DNA of 64,000 nt from Escherichia phage vB_EcoM_PhAPEC2: the sequence record NC_024794.1; one strand, written 5' to 3'. Position 1 is the first letter of the stretch, and the number at the start of each line of letters is the position of its first letter. The position numbers and the translations under genes were made by a program. The notes under the pieces are model-generated. The model was not told the origin of the DNA and did not search any database. It worked only from the letters and a program-made list of their open reading frames with translations. Positions 1-30,191 of the stretch are shown here, in pieces.

Positions 1-2214
1 TTATTTGGCCGCTTCCACGGCCTTCATGAATTTAACGATTTGAGCGACCTGTTCTTTGGAAAGAGTACCACGTCGTCCCATGTATTCTGACACAATATGA
101 TAATTGGTTTCGAATTCAATAACCATTTTATCATCATTATCGTAAGCATTATCTTTAAGCTTATCGAAAATTTTAGCACACAATTCTAACTTCCTGTTCA
201 GGTCTCTGTTATCAGCGCCTGCGAATCGATTCCATCCCCAACGATTATTTACTGTTGAAAGTTTTGCGAAATCTTTACTGATTTCTTTGTTCTTAGAGCT
301 AAAATACTTACTAAGAAAGTTAAGCTCTTCATTACGAGTAATATGATTCAAATAAGGCTGTGCTCTACGACTTGGTGATACATACTCATCATAATCTACT
401 TTATCGATTAGCATAATATAGTCATTAATTGATTTTTCAAACAAGCATTCTACTTCACCAAGTTTACGAACTTTCTTAGCAATCTGTGGGCGAACTACAG
501 TGAACTCTTTAATACCTGACAAATCAGCAATACGGGTCAAAAAATTGGAGTCATAGTTCAACCAACCTTTATCTGCGTCAAGACATTCAGCGTTAGAACG
601 ATTACGAATTACAACATAACCTTGAATCTCATCAGCTTTACTGGCCGGAATAAAGAGATCTTCTGATACCCAAACATCGTTTTCATTCTTAAAAAACCGA
701 TGAGCACTTGGGGATTTAGGACGAGGCTGCGATGAACGTTCTTTAACTTCAATCCATGGTTTAACTAATGCAAGAATTTCAGAGGTCTTATAAAATTTAA
801 GGCTATCACCAGCGAAAATAACCTTTAATCGTTCCAGAAGTTTCATTGCAACTTCATCTTCTGGGTTAATGAATAATACGCTACTACCCCATCCGGAAGG
901 AACCTTATCAACGAGTGTTGATGCATCGGTGGAAGTCAAAGCATCGTTCAGAGCACGCATCATTGGTACGCGGCCTTTCACATCGTCAATAACAATATCA
1001 ATATGCTTACGACTAATACCTAGCAGGCTATTAATTGAAATAGTTGCAGACGAGCTTCCGCTTTCACGAATACGACGAAGTCGTGGGTCTGAAACGATAT
1101 CATATACAACACCAAGGTTGCACCATTCGGGACCCATTTTAAAACGTTTGTACAACTCGGAATAAGTTAGTTGTTCTTTAGAATATTTCAGTGATTCAAT
1201 ATTAGAACCGGCTTTTTCCATGTATTTACGAGCAGAGTAACCAAGAGAATCGATTTCACGGAATACATGACGTGGATATTCACAATCAATCCATTTCTTA
1301 GAATCTTCAGCAAATAATTTTGCATCGATTTCTGCAACACGTTTATGGATATTTGCTACTGTGCGTTTATCAAATGACAATGCTTCACGAGACGGGGCTA
1401 CATCTAGTTCACCCATAGGGAATTTAATATAAGCTGTAGTGCATCGCGTCATCATCCATGTTTGTTCTTTAATAACACTTCCGATTGGATATACAATACC
1501 ACCATAAACAGCCATGATATTACCACGTTCACCCCATGGAGCTTCCTTGGCTAAATAAACATCATCGAATTCCGGGAAGTATTTGATATCTTTAACACCA
1601 CGAACTTCTGCGATATCACCTAGAGGACGCATAACATATGCAATTTCAGATGCGAACTTTTCAAAATCTTCTGGGTTAACCGGTACAACTACTTCTACAC
1701 CCGTACGGTCATCAGGACCCATCTTATCTACAAAGGTTGGCTTAATTTGTGGACCCGTGTCATCTTGGTAGATTACGTAACCACGAACTTCACCGTTGTG
1801 ATAAGACGTAAGGTTAAACGTATCGGTATATGCTAGTGGAGCTTTAGAGCCGAGTCCGAATCCACCAATGAAATCGTTACTCGATGTTTTAGTTGAAGCA
1901 AAATATGAGTTATAGATTCCTGGCTCTTCGTCATTACCTCGAATGGTGAAATCACTCATACCAGGACCAAAGTCTCGAACTACAAAACGTGGGTCTAAAC
2001 GACCTGGAGCCTGAACAATAAACTTATCAGTGCAACCATTAAGAATTTGACCATCGATACAGTTTGTGATTAATTCACGTACACAAGCCAATTCTTTGTT
2101 TGTATAAAGGTCATTAGACAAAATCTTATAAACTTTGCTATTGCCTTGAATAGTGAATGCTGTGCTCTTACCACCTGAACCAATAATCGTTTCTTTAGCC
2201 GTTTCAATAATCAT
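1..2214 (-). CDS. rIIA: rIIA protein (membrane-associated, N-terminal GHKL/HATPase-like fold)
   Basis: 737-aa ORF; N-terminus MIIETAKETIIGSGGKS...ELITNCIDG matches my memory of T4 rIIA; first gene of the conventional T4 map. Confidence 0.9.
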   Translation of the reverse strand: MIIETAKETIIGSGGKSTAFTIQGNSKVYKILSNDLYTNKELACVRELITNCIDGQILNGCTDKFIVQAPGRLDPRFVVRDFGPGMSDFTIRGNDEEPGIYNSYFASTKTSSNDFIGGFGLGSKAPLAYTDTFNLTSYHNGEVRGYVIYQDDTGPQIKPTFVDKMGPDDRTGVEVVVPVNPEDFEKFASEIAYVMRPLGDIAEVRGVKDIKYFPEFDDVYLAKEAPWGERGNIMAVYGGIVYPIGSVIKEQTWMMTRCTTAYIKFPMGELDVAPSREALSFDKRTVANIHKRVAEIDAKLFAEDSKKWIDCEYPRHVFREIDSLGYSARKYMEKAGSNIESLKYSKEQLTYSELYKRFKMGPEWCNLGVVYDIVSDPRLRRIRESGSSSATISINSLLGISRKHIDIVIDDVKGRVPMMRALNDALTSTDASTLVDKVPSGWGSSVLFINPEDEVAMKLLERLKVIFAGDSLKFYKTSEILALVKPWIEVKERSSQPRPKSPSAHRFFKNENDVWVSEDLFIPASKADEIQGYVVIRNRSNAECLDADKGWLNYDSNFLTRIADLSGIKEFTVVRPQIAKKVRKLGEVECLFEKSINDYIMLIDKVDYDEYVSPSRRAQPYLNHITRNEELNFLSKYFSSKNKEISKDFAKLSTVNNRWGWNRFAGADNRDLNRKLELCAKIFDKLKDNAYDNDDKMVIEFETNYHIVSEYMGRRGTLSKEQVAQIVKFMKAVEAAK

Positions 2215-2226
2215 ATTTTTCTCTCA

Positions 2227-2427
2227 TCACAAGTTACGTTTAAAAATTTCTGCTACTTCAAGAAGTTCTTCTTTAGTAGCTGTATCGGTTTGTATTTTAT
2301 ATCGAATTTCTTTAAAGCGTTCTTTAAAGGACTCTGCTGACTCGATATCAAAAAATCTTTGGATAAGACGGAATTCCCGGAGCACTGCTTTATCAAAAAG
2401 TTCCAAGTCCACGTTATATGTTCTCAT
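2227..2427 (-). CDS. hypothetical protein (rIIA.1 position)
   Basis: 66-aa ORF immediately upstream of rIIA, same strand. Confidence 0.5.
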   Translation of the reverse strand: MRTYNVDLELFDKAVLREFRLIQRFFDIESAESFKERFKEIRYKIQTDTATKEELLEVAEIFKRNL

Positions 2428-2519
2428 AATATTCTCTTCAGTAGATTCCTAGGGCACTATTACTAAAGACCATATAATTTATCATCTTATATGTAATAGT
2501 GCCTCAGGCTATTCAGGAT

Positions 2520-3620
2520 TTACGCTGTGAAGATTTTATCCCACATCGCAACAACTGCATCTCGATTATACTTCTTCCATACTGCTTCAGCACGTTTAAC
2601 TCGAGCTTCGTATGTGTCAGTGAATTCTAATACAGCTTTTGTGTAAAGCGCAACTACTTCTTTCTTAGGAGTAGAGGAATCAATTTCTACACGCACAGTA
2701 TCTGGGTCGTATTCGAATGTCGCATGAGGATAATCCTTAAAAACTAACTGGATTACAGGGACACCTTTAGAGATGGCTTCAATAGAACTATTCTCTACCG
2801 TACCTGTGTCAGGACACGTATTAATAAGTGCTTTAGCTGTTTTAAGACGTTCCATGATTTCACTGTGTGGAGCATCAATAATAACAGGATATTTAGCTGG
2901 TGGTGCCCATTTGCTTGGACAATAACCAATACCATTTTCGCCTAGTGCTTTAATTGCTTCAAGAGCAACATCAGTACGACGCATTTTAGTGTCATAACGT
3001 TGTGCACTAATAATCAGATCAGTCGCTGGAAGAACTTCAGGTTTCTCATTCAAACAAATAACCGGATAATCTTCGGCTTCAAACAATGGATTTGCTCGCC
3101 AATAATCATAATCAATTTTGTCAGTAAGAGCTGAAGTCATATGACAATATTTACGTTCAAATTCACGGAAGGCTTTAGTAGGAGCATAACTCTTACCACC
3201 ATTCTTATGAATTTGAATAGTCTGGTCCCAAATTTGAACAATGCCACGAGATACCGGTTCAAATGGTGTTGCCATAAAATTCTTATGAACTTTAGAGAGA
3301 CCTGCGTCTTTAATTGCCTGAACGGTTAGTTTAGTCGGTTCCATAGTAACAACAAAATCGTATTCATGGATGCCGGCTAGTTCAACAATCTTACGAGCCA
3401 TAGTATAACTCATACCTAGACTGAATTTTGTCAGATGACCAACAGGATGGTGTGTAACTTTCCAATCACCAAACGTGTCATTATCAAAGCCGATATAATC
3501 AATATCAGCACCGATGGATACAAGATATTTCAACACATTTAAATGTACTGCTTCAAGACCACCTTGTACACGGTCAGGGTTAAATGGGACTGCACGAGAT
3601 GGGATAAACATAACTTTCAT
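2520..3620 (-). CDS. GT-B (GT4-like) glycosyltransferase; candidate hmC sugar (arabinosyl) transferase
   Basis: 366 aa; C-terminal EX7E-like motif TGTVENSSIEAISKGVPVI typical of GT4 retaining glycosyltransferases; third ORF from the rIIA end, matching the position of the RB69 ORF003c-type transferase as I recall it. Confidence 0.6.
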   Translation of the reverse strand: MKVMFIPSRAVPFNPDRVQGGLEAVHLNVLKYLVSIGADIDYIGFDNDTFGDWKVTHHPVGHLTKFSLGMSYTMARKIVELAGIHEYDFVVTMEPTKLTVQAIKDAGLSKVHKNFMATPFEPVSRGIVQIWDQTIQIHKNGGKSYAPTKAFREFERKYCHMTSALTDKIDYDYWRANPLFEAEDYPVICLNEKPEVLPATDLIISAQRYDTKMRRTDVALEAIKALGENGIGYCPSKWAPPAKYPVIIDAPHSEIMERLKTAKALINTCPDTGTVENSSIEAISKGVPVIQLVFKDYPHATFEYDPDTVRVEIDSSTPKKEVVALYTKAVLEFTDTYEARVKRAEAVWKKYNRDAVVAMWDKIFTA

Positions 3621-3629
3621 AATTAAGCC

Positions 3630-3665
3630 TTATTAAAATTAAAATGAAGCTCCCGAAGGAGCTTA
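3630..3665 (-). terminator. intrinsic terminator after gene 39
   Basis: minus strand AAGCTCC-UUCG-GGAGCUU hairpin starting at the stop codon, then U-rich tract. Confidence 0.55.
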
Positions 3666-5480
3666 GGACATCCATTCTTTACGAAGTTCTGAATCATCAC
3701 CCAACAACATTTCAAAGAGTTCTTTCCAATTTTCAGGAAGTTTAACTACGTCGTACACAGGGTTCTGAATCATTTCACGATATTCTGACTTTTCAAGGGA
3801 GCCTAATCCCTTGATGTATCGAATACTATGCTTAGGCAGTGTATCTTTAACTTCTTCATACTCAGCTACAGTATAAAACCATTTTTGAGTTTTGCCAATT
3901 TGTGCAATAATTACAGGCGTTTTAACAAAGCGAATACGTCCTTGTTCAAACAATTCAGGCCAATTACTAAAGAAAGCAAGCAAAGCCGGATAGATACTTC
4001 CAAGACCGTCATGATCGGCATCGGTCATAATTGCAATATTACGATAGTTCGTATTCTCTGCCTTTTCACCAAGAATAAGACCTGTGATAGCACAGATATC
4101 AAAGAGCTCTTTGTTCTTCATCATATCGGCATATGACATACCCCAGCTATTCATCACCTTACCACGTAATGGGAATCCGCCATGTAGTTCACGGTCACGA
4201 ACATCAATGAGATAACCAATTGCCGAATCACCTTCTGTTAAGAACAATGTCGTATCTGCATCTTTACCACATTGGTTAGCTTTAATATGCTTATGAACCT
4301 TAGCTTTAGTTGCCTTTTTAGCTGCTTTAGTTTCTGCAGCCTTTTCTGCCGCCAATTTACGAGCTAATGCTGCTTCAACAATAGGCATAATCAAGGCTTC
4401 GTTTTTAAGAAGTGCCTGAGCAATTTTCTTAGCATCTAATTGGATATGATTACGAATATCACCATACGTTGACGTTAAACGTTCTTTAGTCTGAGAATCA
4501 AAACGCATGTTGCTCATGTCTCTAATAAACATCAACATTGTGAGGCATTCTTTAACACGAGCTTTAGTGACTTCAATACCCTTATATTTCTTTTTAATAC
4601 CCGGCAAAAGATGTTCGCAGATATCATCCATTACACATTCAACATGATGACCACCGTTTTTAGTATGGATGTTATTCACATAAGTTAAATGACGGAAGCC
4701 ATCTGGTGATGTTGTGAATGCTATAGAGACTTTATCATTTTCTTGAATGATGTTATCTTCACCAAATTGTTTAGCAAATCGTTTAAAATTACCATCAACC
4801 TTTTTACCATTAAATGTGAACTTGATATCAGGATAAACGACTGCTAATGTTTGAAGTCGGTCTAAAGTAATATCTAAATAAATTTGAGATAAATTATGCT
4901 CTTCAAATGAAGTGAAATCAGGAGTGAAGATTACTTTAGTGCCTTTACCTTTAGATTTCTTAGAAGACCATGATTTGTTTTCCATTCCATTTGAACAGTT
5001 AACAGTGATTTCATTTTCGCCATCTGACGTGATGCCTGTAAACAACGTAGAGAAGATATTAGTTAAACTACTCCCGACGCCATTCATACCACCAGTCTTG
5101 CGTTCAGAGTCATCACCAAAGTTACCACCAGCCTTTGGAATAGTCCAGGCTGCTACAGGCCCAGGAATTTGTTCACCTGTTTGGTCGGTAACTAAACCTT
5201 GAGGAATACCACGTCCGTTATCTTCCACCGAAACTTGATTATTTTTAATTTGCACATCAATTTTATTTGCAAACTTAAATGATGTACGAATAGCTTCATC
5301 AACCGAGTTGTCAATAATCTCATCGATTAATTTAACCAGACCAGGAACATATTCAACTTGTTGATATTTACCAAACAAAAAACGCTCATGTGCTTCTTTA
5401 GCCGAAGAACCAATATACATACCACTACGTTTCTTAATATGTTCTACATCTGACAATACCTTAATTTCATTTTTAATCAT
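3663..5480 (-). CDS. 39: DNA topoisomerase II large subunit (GyrB-like ATPase + Toprim), single uninterrupted ORF
   Basis: 605 aa; GHKL motif IDEIIDNSVDEA, Toprim LFLTEGDSAIGY; SD AGGAG before ATG; MotA-type middle promoter upstream. Confidence 0.9.
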   Translation of the reverse strand: MIKNEIKVLSDVEHIKKRSGMYIGSSAKEAHERFLFGKYQQVEYVPGLVKLIDEIIDNSVDEAIRTSFKFANKIDVQIKNNQVSVEDNGRGIPQGLVTDQTGEQIPGPVAAWTIPKAGGNFGDDSERKTGGMNGVGSSLTNIFSTLFTGITSDGENEITVNCSNGMENKSWSSKKSKGKGTKVIFTPDFTSFEEHNLSQIYLDITLDRLQTLAVVYPDIKFTFNGKKVDGNFKRFAKQFGEDNIIQENDKVSIAFTTSPDGFRHLTYVNNIHTKNGGHHVECVMDDICEHLLPGIKKKYKGIEVTKARVKECLTMLMFIRDMSNMRFDSQTKERLTSTYGDIRNHIQLDAKKIAQALLKNEALIMPIVEAALARKLAAEKAAETKAAKKATKAKVHKHIKANQCGKDADTTLFLTEGDSAIGYLIDVRDRELHGGFPLRGKVMNSWGMSYADMMKNKELFDICAITGLILGEKAENTNYRNIAIMTDADHDGLGSIYPALLAFFSNWPELFEQGRIRFVKTPVIIAQIGKTQKWFYTVAEYEEVKDTLPKHSIRYIKGLGSLEKSEYREMIQNPVYDVVKLPENWKELFEMLLGDDSELRKEWMS

Positions 5481-23638: not shown

Positions 23639-24187
23639 TTAACGGGCCCATTTGATGATTTCTGTAATCAAACCATTACGTTCGCTTGCATTAAATCCTA
23701 TAACTTTGTTAGCACCATCATGATTAAGTAATTGATACGTTTGGATTTTGTTATGAATTGCAAACTCTTCAAAATGTGAAATGACTGTATTAAAACCGAA
23801 TGAAGACAAAGTAATAAGGTCGTCTTCAAAACTTTCAGTCATTTCGTTACGTGTTAAAATAATTGTGAACACATCATGGTTTTGGCAAAGACGAACATAA
23901 TCCTGCTCATAAACATCAAGAACAGAGTCCGCATCTTGTCGAATACGTCCATAAACCCAGTTACTAATATATCCACGGTCTAACAGATAAATCTTAGTAG
24001 GGTCTAAATAATTCAACATCGTTTCGAAACAGCCAACTTCATTTCGAGACTTAACATCGAAACGTCCATCAACTGTTCGTTTAGGGAAATCAATCTTTAC
24101 ATATCTTTCACTAATTTCCATTATGTCATTAATGAAAGTTGTTTTACCGGCATTATCCGGGCCATCTACTAAAATAATTTTAGCCAT
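23639..24187 (-). CDS. P-loop kinase (NMP-kinase fold)
   Basis: 182 aa; Walker A GPDNAGKTT, LLDRGY motif; occupies the slot where T4 has beta-glucosyltransferase. Confidence 0.5.
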   Translation of the reverse strand: MAKIILVDGPDNAGKTTFINDIMEISERYVKIDFPKRTVDGRFDVKSRNEVGCFETMLNYLDPTKIYLLDRGYISNWVYGRIRQDADSVLDVYEQDYVRLCQNHDVFTIILTRNEMTESFEDDLITLSSFGFNTVISHFEEFAIHNKIQTYQLLNHDGANKVIGFNASERNGLITEIIKWAR

Positions 24188-24188
24188 T

Positions 24189-25091
24189 TTATTCCTCGAT
24201 TACGACATCTTCGTATTTAGGTATATTATACGGTGAAGAAATTAAAGCATTAAAGTAGATGAACTCACCAAGACCTGGATGGAATACTTCTTCAGGATTT
24301 TCGAAATATTGAATCTTCGGACGTCCTTTAAGAATTTGATAGTACTCAGTTTTAGTTGGATTAAAAATTCGAATCAGCGCTTCTTCAGGATACTTATTTC
24401 TGTCGAAACTATTATTTGGATCAGTTATATAAAGCGGTTGACCTAATTGAATTGCGCATTCAACAACTTGTTCAAAACGATAGCATGGGTCACTAATTCG
24501 AAATGGATGAAAAATACCATCTAGATGAATAGGAGCCAAATCACCTACAAGACGCTGCATGATGGAAGGACGTATAACTTTCTGAGTTACGATAATCTTA
24601 TTACCATCTGCACCTGCGTTAACCAGCACTTCTTTTTGACGTTCATTCAACACAGTAGTTTGAAGTGAACGATTAACTGACAACATATCGGTTTTTAAGA
24701 ATTCGTCAATATAAAAACGTGGTTTATTAGGGTCTGCCGTGATATTGAAATTGAATTCTACATCAAAAGCGCCGTCATATCCAGTGATATCTGTTATTAG
24801 AAAATCACAATCATAATAAGCAATTAATGAATCAACCACAAATTCATTTTCAGACCAGAAATATTTACGAGTGTTATACGCGTTATCTTTATACCATAAT
24901 GGAACAAACTTAAATTCCGGGAAAAGACGTTCACATTCTTTAATATCAGATGCATTACGTGGATATGTAATCACATCACCTGGATTAGCACGGTGCAAAT
25001 GAAGTTGGAAGTTGCCATCCTTAAGGATAGCATACTGTCCAGTTTCATAAGACCGCATACTCAAAATAGGTACGCGGAATTTATTAGCCAT
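24189..25091 (-). CDS. hypothetical protein (300 aa) in the beta-gt slot
   Basis: TAATG-coupled to gene 42; no motif recognised. Confidence 0.5.
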   Translation of the reverse strand: MANKFRVPILSMRSYETGQYAILKDGNFQLHLHRANPGDVITYPRNASDIKECERLFPEFKFVPLWYKDNAYNTRKYFWSENEFVVDSLIAYYDCDFLITDITGYDGAFDVEFNFNITADPNKPRFYIDEFLKTDMLSVNRSLQTTVLNERQKEVLVNAGADGNKIIVTQKVIRPSIMQRLVGDLAPIHLDGIFHPFRISDPCYRFEQVVECAIQLGQPLYITDPNNSFDRNKYPEEALIRIFNPTKTEYYQILKGRPKIQYFENPEEVFHPGLGEFIYFNALISSPYNIPKYEDVVIEE

Positions 25092-25807
25092 TAGTCAAGA
25101 AATCCTTTAACATAATCAAAATCACGTTCAAACACATGGGCACTTACCATGGTATGAGTATAATCACCAACTTCTACACCGCATTCGTTAGCGATATAAT
25201 GAAGTAATTTTCCTTGGAGATAAAAATCCAACTGCATAACAACAGCACAGTTCTGAGAACGCATATGGCAGTGGGTATAAAGCTTACCATCGCGAATATA
25301 ATAAGTCACTGAGTCAGTACATGGATATTCAAGCGTTTCGTCCGAATCAAGCAAAGCCTGATCAGAACTTTCTAGAATTTGGAACACAACTCTTCGAGAG
25401 TTAGGCTTCTCTTTAAGTTCTTTTAGAAGAGCTGGTAATTGGGCCGCAATGCGAGGACCGTAGAAAGTGTTGAAGTTCGCAGGCAAAACATCTGATTTAG
25501 GTTTAGAAATAAATTTAGCGACATTAGGATATGCCTTAAATGCTTCTTCTGCATCAGTACCACCAGAAATCATAAACTTCCAGAAGTCTTCGGCATATTC
25601 ATAAGAGATGCGGTTAATACGTGGGTCGGTCATTTTGAATGATGATGGAGTGTCAACAACTACTGTCATAGACCCAATTTCATTACAACGTCCAATACGA
25701 GAATCAGTTACGAATTCCGGGTTTTCTAAAATTTCACGATTGACTGCTTTAAATGCGGCTTGAAAATCTGCGGCTTTGATATATTTCATTGTGTTATGTT
25801 TTCCCAT
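25091..25807 (-). CDS. 42: dCMP hydroxymethylase (thymidylate-synthase fold)
   Basis: 238 aa; CTDSVTYYIRDGKLYTHCHMRSQN and AHVFERD align to remembered T4 gp42 (CTNTVQYLIRD...NMRSND, LHVYSRH). Confidence 0.85.
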   Translation of the reverse strand: MGKHNTMKYIKAADFQAAFKAVNREILENPEFVTDSRIGRCNEIGSMTVVVDTPSSFKMTDPRINRISYEYAEDFWKFMISGGTDAEEAFKAYPNVAKFISKPKSDVLPANFNTFYGPRIAAQLPALLKELKEKPNSRRVVFQILESSDQALLDSDETLEYPCTDSVTYYIRDGKLYTHCHMRSQNCAVVMQLDFYLQGKLLHYIANECGVEVGDYTHTMVSAHVFERDFDYVKGFLD

Positions 25808-25849
25808 GTTTACCTCAATACAATTTATTATATACTCAATTCATAAAGC

Positions 25850-26089
25850 TTATTTGAATTTCTTGGCAATGTTGATATAACGTAAAGCTTCAGAATCTAT
25901 ACTTCCAAGAACACTATGAAGGAATGCATCAGTGTAGTATTCCAATTGAACAGGTTCTTTAATCACTTTAGCCGCTTTGGTTTCAAACAGGCCCATAAGG
26001 GCCTTTTTAAGAATTTGTTCGTTAGTGTTCAGTTTAATAGTCAAAATCTCTTCATTAAGTTTATAATTAAAAGTTTTTCTAGAAATCAT
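25850..26089 (-). CDS. hypothetical protein
   Basis: 79 aa; ATGA-coupled to downstream gene. Confidence 0.45.
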   Translation of the reverse strand: MISRKTFNYKLNEEILTIKLNTNEQILKKALMGLFETKAAKVIKEPVQLEYYTDAFLHSVLGSIDSEALRYINIAKKFK

Positions 26090-27261
26090 TCCGGGTACCT
26101 CAAAGCGTCATCAGAGTTAGTTATATCAATAATAGATATGGAGTTTTCTGCTAACCCGTTTTTAGATAATTGACGTTTATAATACCTTTCACAATATGTA
26201 CACGTTGACCCACAGATTTCATTAGCACAATCAAAATCTGGATGTCTGAACCACCTTTTTTCTAAAAAGCCATCTAACAAAGAGGTTTCAATATTTACTG
26301 TATGTGAAAACTCAGTCTCATTTTCAAGAGTGAAAATAGTCTCTAAAGGCTTCCACAGTTCTAACAAATTACCTTCAAACTTTTCAGAAGCGTATGCTTC
26401 AAGAACTTTCAAAATGTAGTCTGTGCTACCTGTACGTCCTGAAACTTTGAATTGAGTGATACCAATATCATTATAAAGTTTCAAATCTTGTGGACGAACA
26501 AAACGAGTTCTCAACCAGTTAAATGGGTCTGTATCACGAGCTTTAATACAGTGCTGCATTGGATATCCGTTTAAGGATTTAGCATCATCAGCTGTAACAT
26601 CAGTACTATGGAAAATATAGCAAGAGTCACGATAGCTACAATGTGTTGTATACCCTTTACCAGCATTAGAACAGAACTCATTTACAAGAACTTCAAATAT
26701 TATATTGTTCTTATTGCAAAACTCTGCTGCACGCTTCAGGAAAGAAACTGAACGGTTCTTATGAATTCCGCAACAGACCTTTTTGATATTATATTGGTCA
26801 TGCAAGTATTTGATTTGAGTTACAGCATCGACATGTAGAATTGTTGAAACTTCAATCTCAATGTCTTTATTGACTTCACGAACAATTTCCATAACAACAG
26901 GGTTAGCGATAGTAATACGCCATACACCTATTGACCAAAGATACTGAACATAATCCTGAATAGCTTTCTTCTTCCACTCAACTAGTTCTCTTTTTGAACC
27001 AGGATTTATCGTGTTGAGTGTATAGTTAAAGCAAATACCTAATTCGTTACAACGTTTAACGTAATCTTCTAACATCTTTTTGTCAACGTCAGGAAGCCTA
27101 AAATCAGGTCTGGCTGCTACAAAAGCCATTTCTCTTGTAGAGCCGTATACTTCGTTTATCAAGCTATTAGGATAAGTTTTATTGAGCTCTACGATTTTAT
27201 CAAGAAGAGCTAAATCAAAATTCGTTCCAATTTTAAAAGTATTCATTTTTTTGCATCTCAC
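26086..27261 (-). CDS. U32-family-like protein (putative Fe-S enzyme)
   Basis: 391 aa; cysteine cluster EFCSNAGKGYTTHCSYRDSC and KVSGRTGS resembling the U32 KIEGR signature; assignment from motif memory. Confidence 0.45.
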   Translation of the reverse strand: MRCKKMNTFKIGTNFDLALLDKIVELNKTYPNSLINEVYGSTREMAFVAARPDFRLPDVDKKMLEDYVKRCNELGICFNYTLNTINPGSKRELVEWKKKAIQDYVQYLWSIGVWRITIANPVVMEIVREVNKDIEIEVSTILHVDAVTQIKYLHDQYNIKKVCCGIHKNRSVSFLKRAAEFCNKNNIIFEVLVNEFCSNAGKGYTTHCSYRDSCYIFHSTDVTADDAKSLNGYPMQHCIKARDTDPFNWLRTRFVRPQDLKLYNDIGITQFKVSGRTGSTDYILKVLEAYASEKFEGNLLELWKPLETIFTLENETEFSHTVNIETSLLDGFLEKRWFRHPDFDCANEICGSTCTYCERYYKRQLSKNGLAENSISIIDITNSDDALRYPE

Positions 27262-27302
27262 GTTAATTGATGCGATGGTTTTTGCAGGTCTTACTTAAAT
27301 TA

Positions 27303-27689
27303 TTATAGATTCGGTTTATATGATTTAAATGTTTCGAATTCGCCTTTATTCATAAGAGCTTTGAATTCGTCAGGACGCATAGCTTTGTCGTCGATAATCC
27401 AATCATATACTGGTTTATGTGTTAGCAAATTATGGTACTTCAAGCCAATGTTTGCCAAGTTCTGAATCAGACTTGGGAGAATGTCAATTGCTATACGACC
27501 AGGACCTACTGACTTCATACCGCGAGCAGTGTAAAGCGTTATGGTATGCCCTGCATCATACAGGGCATTAATGGCAGACACCATTTCGACGTCTGGTTTG
27601 AAGTTCACGTAATCACGATTGTTATTCCACTCTGTTATACAATCATCGACATCAAAACAAAGATTAAGCATGTTTTCTACACGGTGCAT
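27303..27689 (-). CDS. small HAD-superfamily phosphatase
   Basis: track ORF 27303..27704; HAD motif I FDVDDCIT near N-terminus, later IIDDKA; start probably overlaps upstream stop. Confidence 0.55.
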   Translation of the reverse strand: MHRVENMLNLCFDVDDCITEWNNNRDYVNFKPDVEMVSAINALYDAGHTITLYTARGMKSVGPGRIAIDILPSLIQNLANIGLKYHNLLTHKPVYDWIIDDKAMRPDEFKALMNKGEFETFKSYKPNL

Positions 27690-29374
27690 TAGATTCGTTC
27701 CCATTGATGAGTGATATCGCCACCGATTGGACGATAAGAAACACCAGTTTCTTTATCAGTTAGTACCCATTTACCAGGATTTTTTGTAATCAGAGTAGCC
27801 GTTACAGGTTCTGCTACGTCATAACTAATAGAGCCGTCCTGAAGTACACGGCCCATGTTACGTAATTGCTTAGTCAGAAGTTCCATACCTTTATAATATG
27901 CGGCTACCGCTTTAAGTGGATTATTCTTGAAATAACCACCTAATGCAATCCAGATAATTGCCACAGCCAAATGATGATACTCGTTAAACGAACTCATCTT
28001 TCCATATTTGTAAACTAATGGATTGATGTTAATAGTCACATTACAAGTTGTTTCATCAATAGTAAACTGTCCCCAGGTCGGATTAGCGTTGAATTCATCA
28101 TAACCTGAAACAGCATAAAGCACTTTAGCTTCATCGTACAATTTTGGCCCGTAAATCTTGGTTTCGCCAAAATATCCACGAGGGTCGATAAACTTGACTT
28201 CGCCGTTATCAGTAATCATAGTATTACTGAAGTTAGGGTCACCATGAATAACAGAGTACTGTCCCTGAGAACGGTTATGATAACGAATAAGGTGTTCTAA
28301 AGCTTGTTTCAGCATTGGCTTCAGACGCCCAATCTTAGTGTAGTTCACATGGGTGATTTTACCAAATGAATCAATCAATGGTTGAATGCTTTCACAACGA
28401 TCAATAACTTTCGTATAGAATTCTTTAGTGAAATCACGACGAACAGTTTCAGGACTTACAAAATAAGTGTCTGTGCTGAATTTCAGTGCATCTAAAATTG
28501 CATCAACAATTTGTGGACGAGCAAGACTTGATTTGGATTTAATATATTCAAATGCCGGCTTACCTTTAATGCGTTCCATTTCAAAGTTATTTTCATTAAC
28601 AGAAACTAACTGAGGAACTGAATCTGATTTCACTTTAAGATACCATGAAATCTCATCTTTCTGAAGAGCTCGACCCTGTTCGGTTAATGCGAATTTAGTT
28701 ACAGTTTCTTCACCAATTTCAACTGCATTAAAACTACGATTAAGTTCACGAACTTCATGAGCTTTTTCAAGTTTAGGCATATCACCTAAATCAATTAGAT
28801 TCATAAGCTCTGATTTATTGAATGCGCTGCCGTAAAGGAATTCTACGAAATCACGTCCTTTGCAGTATTCATGAATTTCCTCATCGGTAGAACCCATATA
28901 GAATTCCCAGTCTTTGAACTGATAAATTCCTACAACATTACCACCTGTTGAACCTACGTTAGTGATATTTTCACCGTCGAAATTATATCGACATTCGTCA
29001 CCCTTAACATAGATTGCGTTAACATTCCAAGACCATGAACCAAAATCGGGAATAATATCACACCAGTTAACAATTACATTATGACCGTCTAAATCTTTGT
29101 GTAATTTAGCAAGAGCATAAGCAGAACCGTACGCTTCATCAACTGTACGAATAGTCACATTGAACCCTTCTTGCTCACAATAAGCTCGAACAGTTTCAGC
29201 AAATTTTGAATGAACTACTACAATAATTTCATCTGCGCCAAGGTCAGAATAAATTGTATACAAATTGCTCAGAATAGTGTCTTGTTTATAGTTAACAAGC
29301 ACCTTAGGAATATGATGCGTTATTGGATATAAACGAGTTGCCAATCCAGCACCAAGAATAACAGCTTTTTTCAT
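27689..29374 (-). CDS. bifunctional sugar-1-phosphate nucleotidyltransferase (RmlA-like) / APH-like sugar kinase
   Basis: 561 aa; N-terminal ILGAGLATRLYPIT (G-x-G-T-R-L-x-P-x-T signature); C-terminal HGDPNFSNTMI (Brenner HGD...N kinase loop). Confidence 0.7.
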   Translation of the reverse strand: MKKAVILGAGLATRLYPITHHIPKVLVNYKQDTILSNLYTIYSDLGADEIIVVVHSKFAETVRAYCEQEGFNVTIRTVDEAYGSAYALAKLHKDLDGHNVIVNWCDIIPDFGSWSWNVNAIYVKGDECRYNFDGENITNVGSTGGNVVGIYQFKDWEFYMGSTDEEIHEYCKGRDFVEFLYGSAFNKSELMNLIDLGDMPKLEKAHEVRELNRSFNAVEIGEETVTKFALTEQGRALQKDEISWYLKVKSDSVPQLVSVNENNFEMERIKGKPAFEYIKSKSSLARPQIVDAILDALKFSTDTYFVSPETVRRDFTKEFYTKVIDRCESIQPLIDSFGKITHVNYTKIGRLKPMLKQALEHLIRYHNRSQGQYSVIHGDPNFSNTMITDNGEVKFIDPRGYFGETKIYGPKLYDEAKVLYAVSGYDEFNANPTWGQFTIDETTCNVTININPLVYKYGKMSSFNEYHHLAVAIIWIALGGYFKNNPLKAVAAYYKGMELLTKQLRNMGRVLQDGSISYDVAEPVTATLITKNPGKWVLTDKETGVSYRPIGGDITHQWERI

Positions 29375-29404
29375 GTTGAAGTCCTCATTGGTAAGTAGGA
29401 GTAT

Positions 29405-29433
29405 TGTACACTATTCTAGTTAAAGCATTCATA
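29405..29433 (-). promoter_or_regulatory. MotA-type middle promoter for the nucleotidyltransferase/kinase gene
   Basis: minus strand AATGCTTTA, 12 nt, TACAAT, about 25 nt before the SD. Confidence 0.45.
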
Positions 29434-29559
29434 CTTTGCTTGTAGTCCAATCATAATCCATCCAATTACAAGTGTTGGAATCATTACTGGAGCCGTTAAG
29501 CTCCAGTAGATAGTCATGACAAGCATCAATAGTAAAAGTCCTATTGTTATTGCTTTCAT
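29416..29559 (-). CDS. small membrane peptide
   Basis: 47-aa hydrophobic ORF not in track; ATGA-coupled to the isomerase stop. Confidence 0.35.
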   Translation of the reverse strand: MKAITIGLLLLMLVMTIYWSLTAPVMIPTLVIGWIMIGLQAKYECFN

Positions 29560-30191
29560 TGTTCGCCTCGTAACATGGCACCTAGTGCACCGCCCGGGTG
29601 GAACTTAAGGAAATCATTAGAGGTAAATCCACGCTCAGACGAAAGGTTGATAGCGAACGTATCGATAAGCGCTAACAACAATGTAGTAGACATTGTCGGA
29701 GCTAAAGAGTTCTCGTCAACTTCTACCGCGATACCGGTACAGAACGTATAATCAAAAAGAGCTTCGTATTCTTGTGGAATGTCAGGGTTACAATGTAACA
29801 GAATCTGTTTAACCTGAGGACGAATCATACGAAGATGCTTAGCCACGCCTATCATTTCTTCAGTTTTACCAGAACGACTAATATGAATCAACACATCATT
29901 AGGCGCAATGAATCCTGCATCACCGTGAGAATAATGCCCAGTGTTCAAGTACATACTAGGGATACCGAGTGAAGCAAATGTCTCAGAAGCTTTAGTTGCA
30001 ATATTAGCATTCTTACCAACACCTGTAATAATTACTCGGCTTTCATAATTACTAAGTCCCGGGCGTCGAAGAGTTTCTAGAATAGCGTTATAACGAGCAG
30101 GGTTTTGACTAATTACTTTGGCCATAGCGGCCAAAGAAGAAGCTTGTTTTATGATTGCGTCAATAGCGATAGTAATAGGAGTAGTTTTCAT
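29556..30191 (-). CDS. SIS-domain sugar-phosphate isomerase, KdsD/GutQ-like arabinose-5-phosphate isomerase without CBS domains
   Basis: 211 aa; GVGKNANIATKASETFASLGIPS, HGDAG, ISRSG, LAPTMSTT, RGFTSNDF, HPGGALG all parallel E. coli KdsD SIS domain. Confidence 0.75.
   Translation of the reverse strand: MKTTPITIAIDAIIKQASSLAAMAKVISQNPARYNAILETLRRPGLSNYESRVIITGVGKNANIATKASETFASLGIPSMYLNTGHYSHGDAGFIAPNDVLIHISRSGKTEEMIGVAKHLRMIRPQVKQILLHCNPDIPQEYEALFDYTFCTGIAVEVDENSLAPTMSTTLLLALIDTFAINLSSERGFTSNDFLKFHPGGALGAMLRGEQ

What the first reader, a model, noticed from the sequence alone, without database searches (positions are those of the whole stretch)
2520..3620. GT4-like glycosyltransferase beside rIIA, about 23 kb from the donor pathway
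The C-terminal EX7E-type motif (VENSSIEAISKGVPVI) indicates a GT-B glycosyltransferase, yet it resembles neither T4 alpha-gt nor beta-gt as I remember them. It is the only clear glycosyltransferase in the window, so it is the candidate enzyme that puts the sugar on hmC. It is bracketed by a terminator upstream and the rIIA.1/rIIA operon downstream.
Basis: partly seen in the sequence, partly recalled or inferred. Interest (0 to 1): 0.7.

Follow-up and report, generated by a model that had tools for sequence, protein, structure and literature searches.

The report
Second DNA arabinosyltransferase of RB69-like phage
This gene is the already described, already crystallised glycosyltransferase of RB69-like phages (RB69 ORF003c/gp3), which most likely adds the second arabinose to arabinosylated 5-hydroxycytosine in phage DNA; it is a real gene, not a new one.

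Summary
The ORF is real: window 2520..3620 (-), 366 aa, between the topoisomerase gene 60plus39 and rIIA.1/rIIA. The window comes from a Mosigvirus. The protein is 361/366 identical to RB69 ORF003c at the same coordinates. It differs at 2 residues from a solved structure, PDB 9IQZ/9IR0 ("phage HY126 glycosyltransferase", apo and with UDP, released 2025-07-16). RB69 ORF003c was proposed as the DNA arabinosyltransferase in 2018.

- It is not the only glycosyltransferase here. ORF 24189..25091 (-) (RB69 gp46:47) is a confidently modelled GT-B-like protein inside the sugar cluster.
- The acceptor base is most likely 5-hydroxycytosine, not hmC. The adjacent ThyA homologue is 236/238 identical to RB69 gp48, which makes 5-hydroxy-dC, and carries the D169N signature.
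- The gene most likely adds the second sugar, not the first. The 300-aa family occurs in all arabinosylating phages, including mono-arabinosylated LC53 and Thanatos. The 366-aa family occurs only in Mosigvirus (di-arabinose, one copy) and Acinetobacter phages (DLP3 tri-arabinose, two copies).

The VENSSIEAISKGVPVI motif is present but reads E-x4-E, not a literal EX7E.

Verdict: already known, ordinary, low interest.

The parts
2520..3620 (-). CDS, 366 aa: GT-B glycosyltransferase. It corresponds to RB69 ORF003c/gp3, the HY126 glycosyltransferase (PDB 9IQZ/9IR0) and PhAPEC2_3. Predicted chain-extending (second) DNA arabinofuranosyltransferase.
   Evidence: ORF. 361/366 identical to RB69 ORF003c at the same coordinates. 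Two differences from 9IQZ over 366 residues. Foldseek top hits 9ir0_A/9iqz_A. PHROG 8302 matched full length. Exact match to PhAPEC2_3.
2751..2798 (-). C-terminal-domain motif VENSSIEAISKGVPVI (residues 275-290). The family-invariant residues are G273, T274, E276, S279, E281, A282 and G286. The pattern is E-x4-E followed by EAxxxGxPV.
   Evidence: Position; invariance across 13 family members. That E281 plays the role of the nucleotide-ribose-binding Glu of GT4 enzymes is an inference and was not tested.
3637..3664 (-). Terminator-like hairpin with a UUCG loop and a T-rich tail. It overlaps the stop codon of the topoisomerase gene. An AAGG ribosome-binding site follows at 3628..3631, before the ATG at 3620.
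2448..2508 (.). 16-nt inverted repeat (arms 2448-2463 and 2493-2508, 29 nt apart) in the spacer between the GT stop codon and rIIA.1. Function unknown.
24189..25091 (-). CDS, 300 aa: second GT-B-like protein of the window (= RB69 gp46:47). Proposed first, base-proximal alpha-arabinosyltransferase.
   Evidence: AlphaFold model at pLDDT 95. Foldseek hits to UDP-GlcNAc 2-epimerases, MshA 3c4q and other GT-B transferases. 99% identical to RB69 ORF046c+047c (H115). The role is the one proposed in PMC13326640.
25091..25807 (-). CDS, 238 aa: thymidylate-synthase homologue, predicted 5-hydroxy-dCMP synthase. It makes the acceptor base.
   Evidence: Pfam PF00303. About 98% identical to PDB 9IQC/9IR2. 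236/238 identical to RB69 gp48. RSQN...D signature against RSND...D in T4 gp42. The RB69 gp48 activity is reported in PMC13326640.
23639..24187 (-). CDS, 182 aa: predicted nucleotide kinase (= RB69 gp45).
   Evidence: 180/182 identical to RB69 ORF045c. The role is from Table 1 of PMC13326640.
26086..27261 (-). CDS, 391 aa: peptidase-U32-like protein (= RB69 gp50). Its role in the pathway is unclear.
   Evidence: Pfam PF01136. 384/389 aligned positions identical to RB69 ORF050c.
27303..27704 (-). CDS, 133 aa: HAD-like phosphatase (= RB69 gp51, AfhF-like). It converts Araf-1,5-bisphosphate to Araf-1-phosphate.
   Evidence: 127/128 identical to RB69 ORF051c. The role is from PMC13326640 citing He et al..
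27689..29374 (-). CDS, 561 aa: bifunctional nucleotidyltransferase/kinase (= RB69 gp52:53, AfhE-like). It makes UDP-arabinofuranose.
   Evidence: Pfam NTP_transferase at the N-terminus and weak kinase hits at the C-terminus.
29556..30191 (-). CDS, 211 aa: SIS-domain arabinose-5-phosphate isomerase (= RB69 gp55).
   Evidence: Pfam PF01380. 207/211 identical to RB69 ORF055c.

Best explanation
The gene encodes a soluble GT-B glycosyltransferase that uses UDP-arabinofuranose. It acts on phage DNA in which cytosine has been replaced by 5-hydroxycytosine that already carries one alpha-D-arabinofuranose. It adds a second arabinofuranose to give beta-D-Araf-(1->3)-alpha-D-Araf-O-5-cytosine, the major modified base of RB69-like phages.

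The rest of the pathway is encoded about 20-26 kb away in the same window. The ThyA homologue makes 5-hydroxy-dCMP. The SIS isomerase, the bifunctional kinase/uridylyltransferase and the HAD phosphatase make UDP-Araf. The 300-aa GT-B protein most likely installs the first arabinose.

Shown here: the gene's identity, its fold class, near-identity to a protein crystallised with UDP, and the distribution of both GT families across phages.
Taken from the literature: the chemical structure of the base, the activity of the ThyA homologue, and the UDP-Araf-dependent chain extension on RB69 DNA by the DLP3 paralogues.
Inferred: that this particular enzyme performs step 2, and that it forms the beta-(1->3) linkage.
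For: 1. Identity.
- 361/366 identical to RB69 ORF003c at the same genome position.
- 2 differences from PDB 9IQZ/9IR0, described as 'phage HY126 glycosyltransferase' and '... with UDP'.

2. Copy number follows sugar number.
- The 366-aa family is found in 210 phage records, all Mosigvirus-type coliphages or Shigella phages or Acinetobacter phages, apart from one Tegunavirus-named record that I did not inspect. Every listed Acinetobacter record holds two places.
- HMM scans find 1 copy in the window and in RB69, and 2 adjacent copies in DLP3, Acj61 and two other Acinetobacter-phage loci (L006, L009).
- The 300-aa family is found in 347 records. These include Serratia LC53 and Shewanella Thanatos-1, both of which lack the 366-aa family.
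- Reported chemistry: LC53 mono-arabinose and Bas46 di-arabinose; Bas46/Bas47 double arabinosylation; Thanatos mono, with a single ara-GT syntenic with gp46:47; RB69 mono and di, DLP3 up to tri; Mosigvirus NP mono:di 1:4.
- Bas46 and Bas47 carry this gene at 98-99% identity (H69 and H39).

3. Family biochemistry. DLP3 gp76 and gp77 are 40% and 43% identical to the target. Together they add a further arabinose from UDP-Araf to RB69 DNA in vitro.

4. [quoted passage not shown]

5. The acceptor base is 5-hydroxycytosine.
Against: - No direct assay of RB69 gp3 or of this protein is available in any paper I could read. The two papers most likely to contain one are not in the library: He et al., Nat Chem Biol 2026, and Mahler et al., Cell Host Microbe 2025.
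- In the DLP3 work no single glycosyltransferase was active alone. No enzyme arabinosylated plain 5hoC-DNA, so the order of action is not biochemically established.
- gp76 and gp77 are closer to each other (57%) than to the target (41-43%). Orthology therefore cannot say which of their two steps the target corresponds to.
- The phyletic argument is a correlation over a few chemically characterised phages.
- My own structure model is only moderate (pLDDT 61.8, residues 108-188 below 50).
- The nearest structural neighbours are retaining GT4-type enzymes, while the proposed product linkage is beta. That fits only if the donor anomer or the mechanism differs from the usual GT4 case.
Confidence: 0.75

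Rival explanations
1. It is the first, base-proximal arabinosyltransferase. It would put arabinose directly on the modified cytosine, and the 300-aa GT-B protein would extend the chain or do something else.
For: Thomas et al. 2018 proposed ORF003c as 'the' arabinosyltransferase on HMM/HHpred grounds. BASEL-collection records annotate it 'putative hmC-arabinosyltransferase' (H39 and H69). No accessible assay fixes the order of action.
Against: Mono-arabinosylated phages (LC53, Thanatos) lack this family altogether but keep the 300-aa GT. If this family did step 1, they could not be arabinosylated. Copy number of this family follows the number of extra sugars (0, 1, 2). The 2018 proposal was made before the 300-aa ORF, split by a sequencing error in RB69, was recognised as a GT.
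Confidence: 0.1
2. It works only as an obligate partner in a complex with the other glycosyltransferase. It may be a non-catalytic or specificity subunit, so neither 'first' nor 'second' describes it properly.
For: In DLP3, tri-arabinosylation needed gp76 and gp77 together, and single enzymes were inactive.
Against: The family keeps invariant nucleotide-sugar-site-like residues (G20-G21, E276, E281, H299 and others). The HY126 protein was crystallised with UDP bound. Both points argue for a catalytically competent enzyme. In Mosigvirus the gene lies 20 kb from the other GT rather than next to it.
Confidence: 0.1
3. It glycosylates something other than DNA, for example a host envelope component or a phage protein, and sits near rIIA for unrelated reasons.
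For: The nearest structural neighbours are lipid, LPS and small-molecule glycosyltransferases: PimA, WaaG, BshA, MshA. The gene is not inside the modification cluster in Mosigvirus.
Against: In Acinetobacter phages both paralogues lie inside the modification cluster, directly beside the kinase, the first GT and the ThyA homologue. The DLP3 paralogues act on DNA in vitro. The family occurs only in phages with poly-arabinosylated DNA.
Confidence: 0.03

Closest known systems
RB69 ORF003c / gp3 (NP_861693.1); phage HY126 glycosyltransferase (PDB 9IQZ apo, 9IR0 with UDP); PhAPEC2_3
   Same: The same protein. 98.6% identical to RB69 ORF003c at identical coordinates, 2 differences from the crystallised HY126 protein, and an exact match to PhAPEC2_3. 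The flanking genes are the same: 60plus39 and rIIA.1.
   Different: Only a few substitutions (T56N, H160Y, A164G, I231A, T327I relative to RB69). None falls in a family-invariant column.
Acinetobacter phage DLP3 gp77 and gp76 (Lazarusvirus), chain-extending DNA arabinosyltransferases
   Same: Full-length homologues at 43% and 40% identity. They share the invariant motifs. They act on arabinosylated 5hoC-DNA with UDP-Araf.
   Different: There are two tandem copies inside the modification cluster, against one copy 20 kb away here. The duplication happened after the split from the Mosigvirus lineage. Together they make the third, beta-(1->5) arabinose, which RB69-type DNA lacks.
T2/T6 beta-alpha-glucosyl-HMC glucosyltransferase, which forms gentiobiosyl-hmC (function from established knowledge of T-even phages; named as 'T2 ba-gt')
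   Same: The logic is the same: a second phage glycosyltransferase that adds a sugar onto the first sugar already attached to the modified cytosine in DNA.
   Different: The sugar differs (glucose against arabinofuranose), as do the donor (UDP-Glc against UDP-Araf) and the base (hmC against 5hoC). I did not compare sequences with ba-gt.
T4 alpha-glucosyltransferase (GT72, PDB 1XV5) and beta-glucosyltransferase (GT63)
   Same: All are GT-B fold DNA glycosyltransferases of T4-like phages. Thomas et al. report an HHpred match of ORF003c to 1XV5 at E = 1.9e-24 with at most 13% identity.
   Different: BLASTP finds no similarity and neither appears among the top 50 Foldseek hits. The T4 enzymes act directly on the hydroxymethyl group of hmC and use UDP-glucose.
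GT4-type retaining GT-B glycosyltransferases (PimA 2GEJ/4NC9, WaaG 2IV7, BshA 3MBO, MshA 3C4Q, BH4 glucosyltransferase 5ZES/9V0L)
   Same: They are the best non-self structural neighbours, at Foldseek E = 3e-9 to 3e-7. They share an N-terminal GG motif and a C-terminal EAxxxGxPV element.
   Different: Identity is 10-17%. There is no Pfam Glycos_transf_1 or Glyco_trans_4 hit and no HMMER hit from the family profile. The first Glu of EX7E is absent (G273). The proposed product is a beta linkage on a DNA-bound sugar.

Membership tests
RB69 gp3 / DLP3 gp76-gp77 family of chain-extending DNA arabinofuranosyltransferases (PHROG 8302) | Full-length sequence homology to characterised members | tested here: met
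   PHROG 8302 at E = 2e-222, residues 1-366 of 366. 98.6% identical to RB69 ORF003c. 43% and 40% identical to DLP3 gp77 and gp76 over the full length.
RB69 gp3 / DLP3 gp76-gp77 family of chain-extending DNA arabinofuranosyltransferases (PHROG 8302) | GT-B two-Rossmann fold with a UDP-binding site | tested here: met
   The model's top Foldseek hits are 9ir0_A ('phage HY126 glycosyltransferase with UDP') and 9iqz_A, followed by GT-B enzymes. The query differs from that crystallised protein at 2 residues. My own model is only moderate (pLDDT 61.8).
RB69 gp3 / DLP3 gp76-gp77 family of chain-extending DNA arabinofuranosyltransferases (PHROG 8302) | Co-occurrence in the same genome with the 5-hydroxy-dCMP synthase, the UDP-Araf genes and the 300-aa first GT | tested here: met
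   All are present in the window at 23639..30191 and in DLP3, Acj61, Acj9 and related loci.
RB69 gp3 / DLP3 gp76-gp77 family of chain-extending DNA arabinofuranosyltransferases (PHROG 8302) | Presence only in phages whose DNA carries more than one arabinose per cytosine | tested here: met
   tblastn finds 210 records: Mosigvirus-type and Acinetobacter phages plus one uninspected Tegunavirus-named record. None is from Serratia or Shewanella, although those phages have the 300-aa GT. Only a handful of phages are chemically characterised.
RB69 gp3 / DLP3 gp76-gp77 family of chain-extending DNA arabinofuranosyltransferases (PHROG 8302) | Transfer of Araf from UDP-Araf to mono-arabinosyl-5hoC in DNA, forming the beta-(1->3) linkage | not testable with these tools
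   This needs an enzyme assay or a deletion mutant. The only accessible biochemistry is DLP3 gp76+gp77 adding the third arabinose.
CAZy GT4 / Pfam Glycos_transf_1 (PF00534) with the Glyco_trans_4 N-terminal domain | Significant match to the Pfam family models | tested here: not met
   No Pfam family at E <= 1. A 13-sequence family profile finds no PDB glycosyltransferase other than 9IQZ.
CAZy GT4 / Pfam Glycos_transf_1 (PF00534) with the Glyco_trans_4 N-terminal domain | EX7E motif in the C-terminal domain | tested here: not met
   The sequence reads TGTVE276NSSIE281AISKGVPVI. The two Glu residues are 5 apart, and the position 8 residues before E281 is the invariant G273. Only the second half of the motif is kept.
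CAZy GT4 / Pfam Glycos_transf_1 (PF00534) with the Glyco_trans_4 N-terminal domain | GT-B fold closest to GT4 structures | tested here: met
   Foldseek hits PimA, WaaG, BshA, MshA and BA1558 (GT4) at E = 3e-9 to 3e-7, TM 0.44-0.55, with a moderate-confidence model. HHpred results in Thomas et al. 2018 agree.
CAZy GT4 / Pfam Glycos_transf_1 (PF00534) with the Glyco_trans_4 N-terminal domain | Retaining stereochemistry | not testable with these tools
   The proposed product is a beta-Araf linkage. The anomeric configuration of the natural UDP-Araf donor is not given in any text I could read.
T4-type hmC DNA glucosyltransferases (alpha-gt GT72, beta-gt GT63) | Sequence similarity to T4 a-gt or b-gt | tested here: not met
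   BLASTP best E = 4.9 (a-gt) and 3.2 (b-gt). No Tequatrovirus record among 210 tblastn hits.
T4-type hmC DNA glucosyltransferases (alpha-gt GT72, beta-gt GT63) | The phage makes hmC as the acceptor (gp42-type dCMP hydroxymethylase) | tested here: not met
   The window's ThyA homologue is only 26% identical to T4 gp42. It has Asn where gp42 and ThyA have D169. It is 236/238 identical to RB69 gp48, a 5-hydroxy-dCMP synthase.

The most novel reading that the evidence does not exclude
RB69 DNA carries an alpha-linked first arabinose and a beta-linked second one. If both come from the same UDP-Araf donor, one of the two transferases must retain and the other invert the anomeric configuration. If the donor is the alpha anomer, as is usual for pyrophosphorylase products, then this enzyme would be an inverting beta-arabinofuranosyltransferase. 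It would be built on a scaffold whose nearest structural relatives are all retaining GT4-type enzymes, and it lacks the first Glu of EX7E. That would be an unusual mechanistic switch within a GT4-like fold. The solved HY126 structures and He et al. 2026, which I could not read, may already settle this.
Probability: 0.3. Interest if true: 0.35.

Novelty: already known. Interest (0 to 1): 0.12.

Why it matters
Poly-arabinosylation of 5-hydroxycytosine protects RB69-like and Acinetobacter phage DNA from many restriction enzymes and some CRISPR systems, and it changes which defence systems can see the phage. This gene sets whether the DNA carries one sugar or two.

All of this has been published: the 2018 proposal, the 2025-2026 revision of the chemistry, and the solved structures. 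The practical value here is for annotation. Most database records still call this protein 'hypothetical', 'DNA alpha-glucosyltransferase' or 'hmC-arabinosyltransferase'. The adjacent 300-aa glycosyltransferase is often mislabelled 'RNA polymerase binding protein'.

Tried and rejected
- **Pfam scan of the target:** no hit, so there is no domain-level support for 'GT4'.
- **HMMER profile of 13 family members against all PDB sequences:** only 9IQZ was found. This gave no residue-level alignment to any characterised GT4 enzyme, so catalytic residues could not be mapped.
- **AlphaFold with the 6-sequence alignment allowed by the tool:** the model was only moderate, with residues 108-188 disordered. 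I used it only for fold class and for retrieving the PDB entries.
- **The two key papers:** He et al. 2026 and Mahler et al. 2025 are not in the library.
- **Literature searches that returned only noise:** PDB codes and 'Afh'/'Aat' gene names.
- **Assigning the target to gp77 rather than gp76 by orthology:** rejected, because gp76 and gp77 are each other's closest relatives.
- **Sigma-70 promoter scan around the gene:** no more sites than in shuffled sequence (6 against 5.8), so I make no promoter claim.
- **IMG/VR scan for further contexts:** only 7 loci, all Mosigvirus or Acinetobacter phages. No new lineage turned up.
Full report
**What is there**

Window 2520..3620 (-) is a 366-aa ORF. Upstream on the same strand lies the large topoisomerase II subunit gene (3663..5480). 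Between the two is a 7-bp GC-rich hairpin with a UUCG loop and a T-rich tail (3664..3647), then an AAGG ribosome-binding site. Downstream are rIIA.1 (2227..2427) and rIIA (1..2214).

The peptide VENSSIEAISKGVPVI is residues 275-290. The physical observation is therefore correct. Two details are not:
- The motif is E276-x4-E281, not EX7E. The position where the first Glu of EX7E should be is the family-invariant G273.
- Pfam finds no glycosyltransferase domain at all.

**Where the window comes from**

The region is 98-99% identical in DNA to about 160 Mosigvirus (RB69-like) phage genomes. RB69 itself has ORF003c at exactly 2520..3620 (-) with the same neighbours, and the two proteins are 361/366 identical. 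The protein sequence matches PhAPEC2_3 of Escherichia phage vB_EcoM_PhAPEC2 exactly.

**It is already known and already solved**

- A sequence search of the PDB finds 9IQZ/9IR0 with two differences over 366 residues.
- A Foldseek search with my model returns these as the top hits, described as 'phage HY126 glycosyltransferase' and '... with UDP', released 2025-07-16. The model is moderate (pLDDT 61.8).
- The next hits are GT4-type GT-B enzymes (PimA, WaaG, BshA, MshA, tetrahydrobiopterin glucosyltransferase) at 10-17% identity.
- Thomas et al. 2018 (PMC6024577) singled out RB69 ORF003c as the candidate arabinosyltransferase using HMM/HHpred methods.
- Lee et al. 2026 (PMC13326640) list RB69 gp3 as 'beta-arabinosyltransferase 2'.

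RB69 DNA does not contain arabinosyl-hmC. LC-MS/MS and NMR show beta-D-Araf-(1->3)-alpha-D-Araf attached through an ether oxygen to C5 of cytosine, that is, to 5-hydroxycytosine. A mono-arabinosylated species is also present. The hydroxyl comes from a flavin-using thymidylate-synthase homologue (RB69 gp48) acting on dCMP.

The window encodes this enzyme at 25091..25807:
- It is 236/238 identical to RB69 gp48.
- It is about 98% identical to PDB 9IQC/9IR2, whose codes neighbour 9IQZ/9IR0.
- An alignment with T4 gp42 shows RSQN...D where gp42 has RSND...D. This is the D169N signature that Lee et al. give for 5-hydroxy-dCMP synthases, together with N177D.

The acceptor base in this phage is therefore 5hoC, not hmC.

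**It is not the only glycosyltransferase in the window**

ORF 24189..25091 (-) lies directly beside the ThyA homologue. In the RB69 record it is split into ORF046c and ORF047c, which Lee et al. attribute to a sequencing error. It has no Pfam hit and no PDB sequence hit. With a 34-sequence alignment it models at pLDDT 95. The model matches UDP-GlcNAc 2-epimerases, MshA and other GT-B transferases. It shows no sequence similarity to the target.

Next to it are the nucleotide kinase, the U32-like protein, the HAD phosphatase, the bifunctional nucleotidyltransferase/kinase and the arabinose-5-phosphate isomerase. DNA polymerase follows.

**Which enzyme does which step**

I compared the distribution of the two families across 50,697 phage records.

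| Phage (group) | 300-aa family | 366-aa family | Reported sugars per cytosine |
|---|---|---|---|
| Serratia LC53 | present | absent | 1 |
| Shewanella Thanatos-1 | present | absent | 1, single ara-GT syntenic with gp46:47 |
| RB69, Bas46, Bas47, NP (Mosigvirus) | present | 1 copy | up to 2 |
| DLP3 (Acinetobacter) | present | 2 adjacent copies | up to 3 |

- The 300-aa family is in 347 records from many host genera: Escherichia, Klebsiella, Serratia, Yersinia, Proteus, Edwardsiella, Shewanella and Acinetobacter.
- The 366-aa family is in 210 records, restricted to Mosigvirus-type phages and Acinetobacter phages, apart from one Tegunavirus-named record that I did not inspect. Every listed Acinetobacter record holds two places.
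- HMM scans confirm one copy in the window and in RB69, and two adjacent copies in DLP3, Acj61 and two other Acinetobacter-phage loci (L006, L009).
- The library of 1.84 billion cluster representatives holds only about ten relatives at E <= 1e-10. IMG/VR adds no new lineage.

The 300-aa protein behaves as the core, first transferase, and the 366-aa family as chain extenders. DLP3 gp76 and gp77 (40% and 43% identical to the target) together add a third arabinose from UDP-Araf to RB69 DNA in vitro. This shows that the family acts on already arabinosylated DNA with UDP-Araf.

**Limits**

- I could not read any direct assay of this protein. In the DLP3 study single enzymes were inactive, and nobody arabinosylated bare 5hoC-DNA.
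- gp76 and gp77 are 57% identical to each other and 41-43% to the target. The duplication is therefore specific to the Acinetobacter-phage lineage, and the target is co-orthologous to both.
- One paper reports that deleting 'the arabinosyltransferase Aat' in Bas46 made the phage sensitive to a plasmid-borne defence. It does not say which of the two genes was deleted.
- The two papers that probably settle the matter are not held.

I put 0.75 on 'second-sugar transferase', 0.10 on 'first-sugar transferase', 0.10 on 'obligate complex partner' and about 0.03 on a non-DNA substrate.

**Comparison with known families**

- The protein is a member of the RB69 gp3 / DLP3 gp76-77 family (PHROG 8302).
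- It has a GT4-like fold but fails the sequence tests for GT4 membership: no Pfam hit, no EX7E.
- It is not related in sequence to T4 alpha- or beta-glucosyltransferase.
- Functionally it is closest to the T2/T6 enzyme that adds a second glucose to glucosyl-hmC.

One open point concerns stereochemistry. The first arabinose is alpha and the second beta, so if both enzymes use one donor, one of them inverts. If this is the inverting one, it does so on a scaffold whose relatives all retain.

**Verdict**

The gene is real and correctly recognised as a DNA-modification glycosyltransferase. It is already described, named and crystallised. Interest is low.

Noticed in passing
window 24189..25091 (-): The 300-aa ORF beside the ThyA homologue has no Pfam or PDB sequence hit, yet it models at pLDDT 95 as a GT-B-like protein. 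UniRef and several phage records call it 'RNA polymerase binding protein', which looks like an annotation error that has been copied between records.
   Followed up: yes
window 2448..2508: A 16-nt inverted repeat (CCTAGGGCACTATTAC / GTAATAGTGCCTCAGG, 29 nt apart) fills most of the 92-nt spacer between the glycosyltransferase stop codon and rIIA.1. It is too long-looped to count as a simple terminator, and its function is unknown.
   Followed up: partly
L012 (Escherichia phage LH01, PP434429.1 2520..3619): In this Mosigvirus record the gene is split into 825-nt and 177-nt ORFs, and the match spans one base fewer than the intact gene. This is either a sequencing error or a natural knockout. A knockout would predict mono-arabinosylated DNA.
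   Followed up: partly
L011 (Shigella phage JK45, NC_054940.1 2520..4123): An intact copy of the gene is followed by a 411-nt ORF, which the tblastn match indicates is a duplicate of part of the gene. This may be a tandem partial duplication or an assembly artefact. The record is also filed under Tequatrovirus although its sequence is Mosigvirus-like.
   Followed up: partly
window 26086..27261 (-): A peptidase-U32-like protein (RB69 gp50) sits in the middle of the arabinosylation cluster. Lee et al. only guess at 'sugar or heterocycle reductase'. The DLP3 cluster shown has no gene annotated at the corresponding place, so its role in the pathway is unexplained.
   Followed up: no
tblastn summary (phages collection): One record named 'Tegunavirus' has a hit to the 366-aa family below 60% identity. 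It lies outside the Mosigvirus and Acinetobacter groups and may mark a third lineage with chain-extending transferases. I did not inspect it.
   Followed up: no
window 3663..5480 (-): The topoisomerase large subunit is a single 605-aa ORF (gp60plus39 fused, as in RB69). The glycosyltransferase therefore occupies the interval next to where T4 has the split gene 60/39 region.
   Followed up: partly
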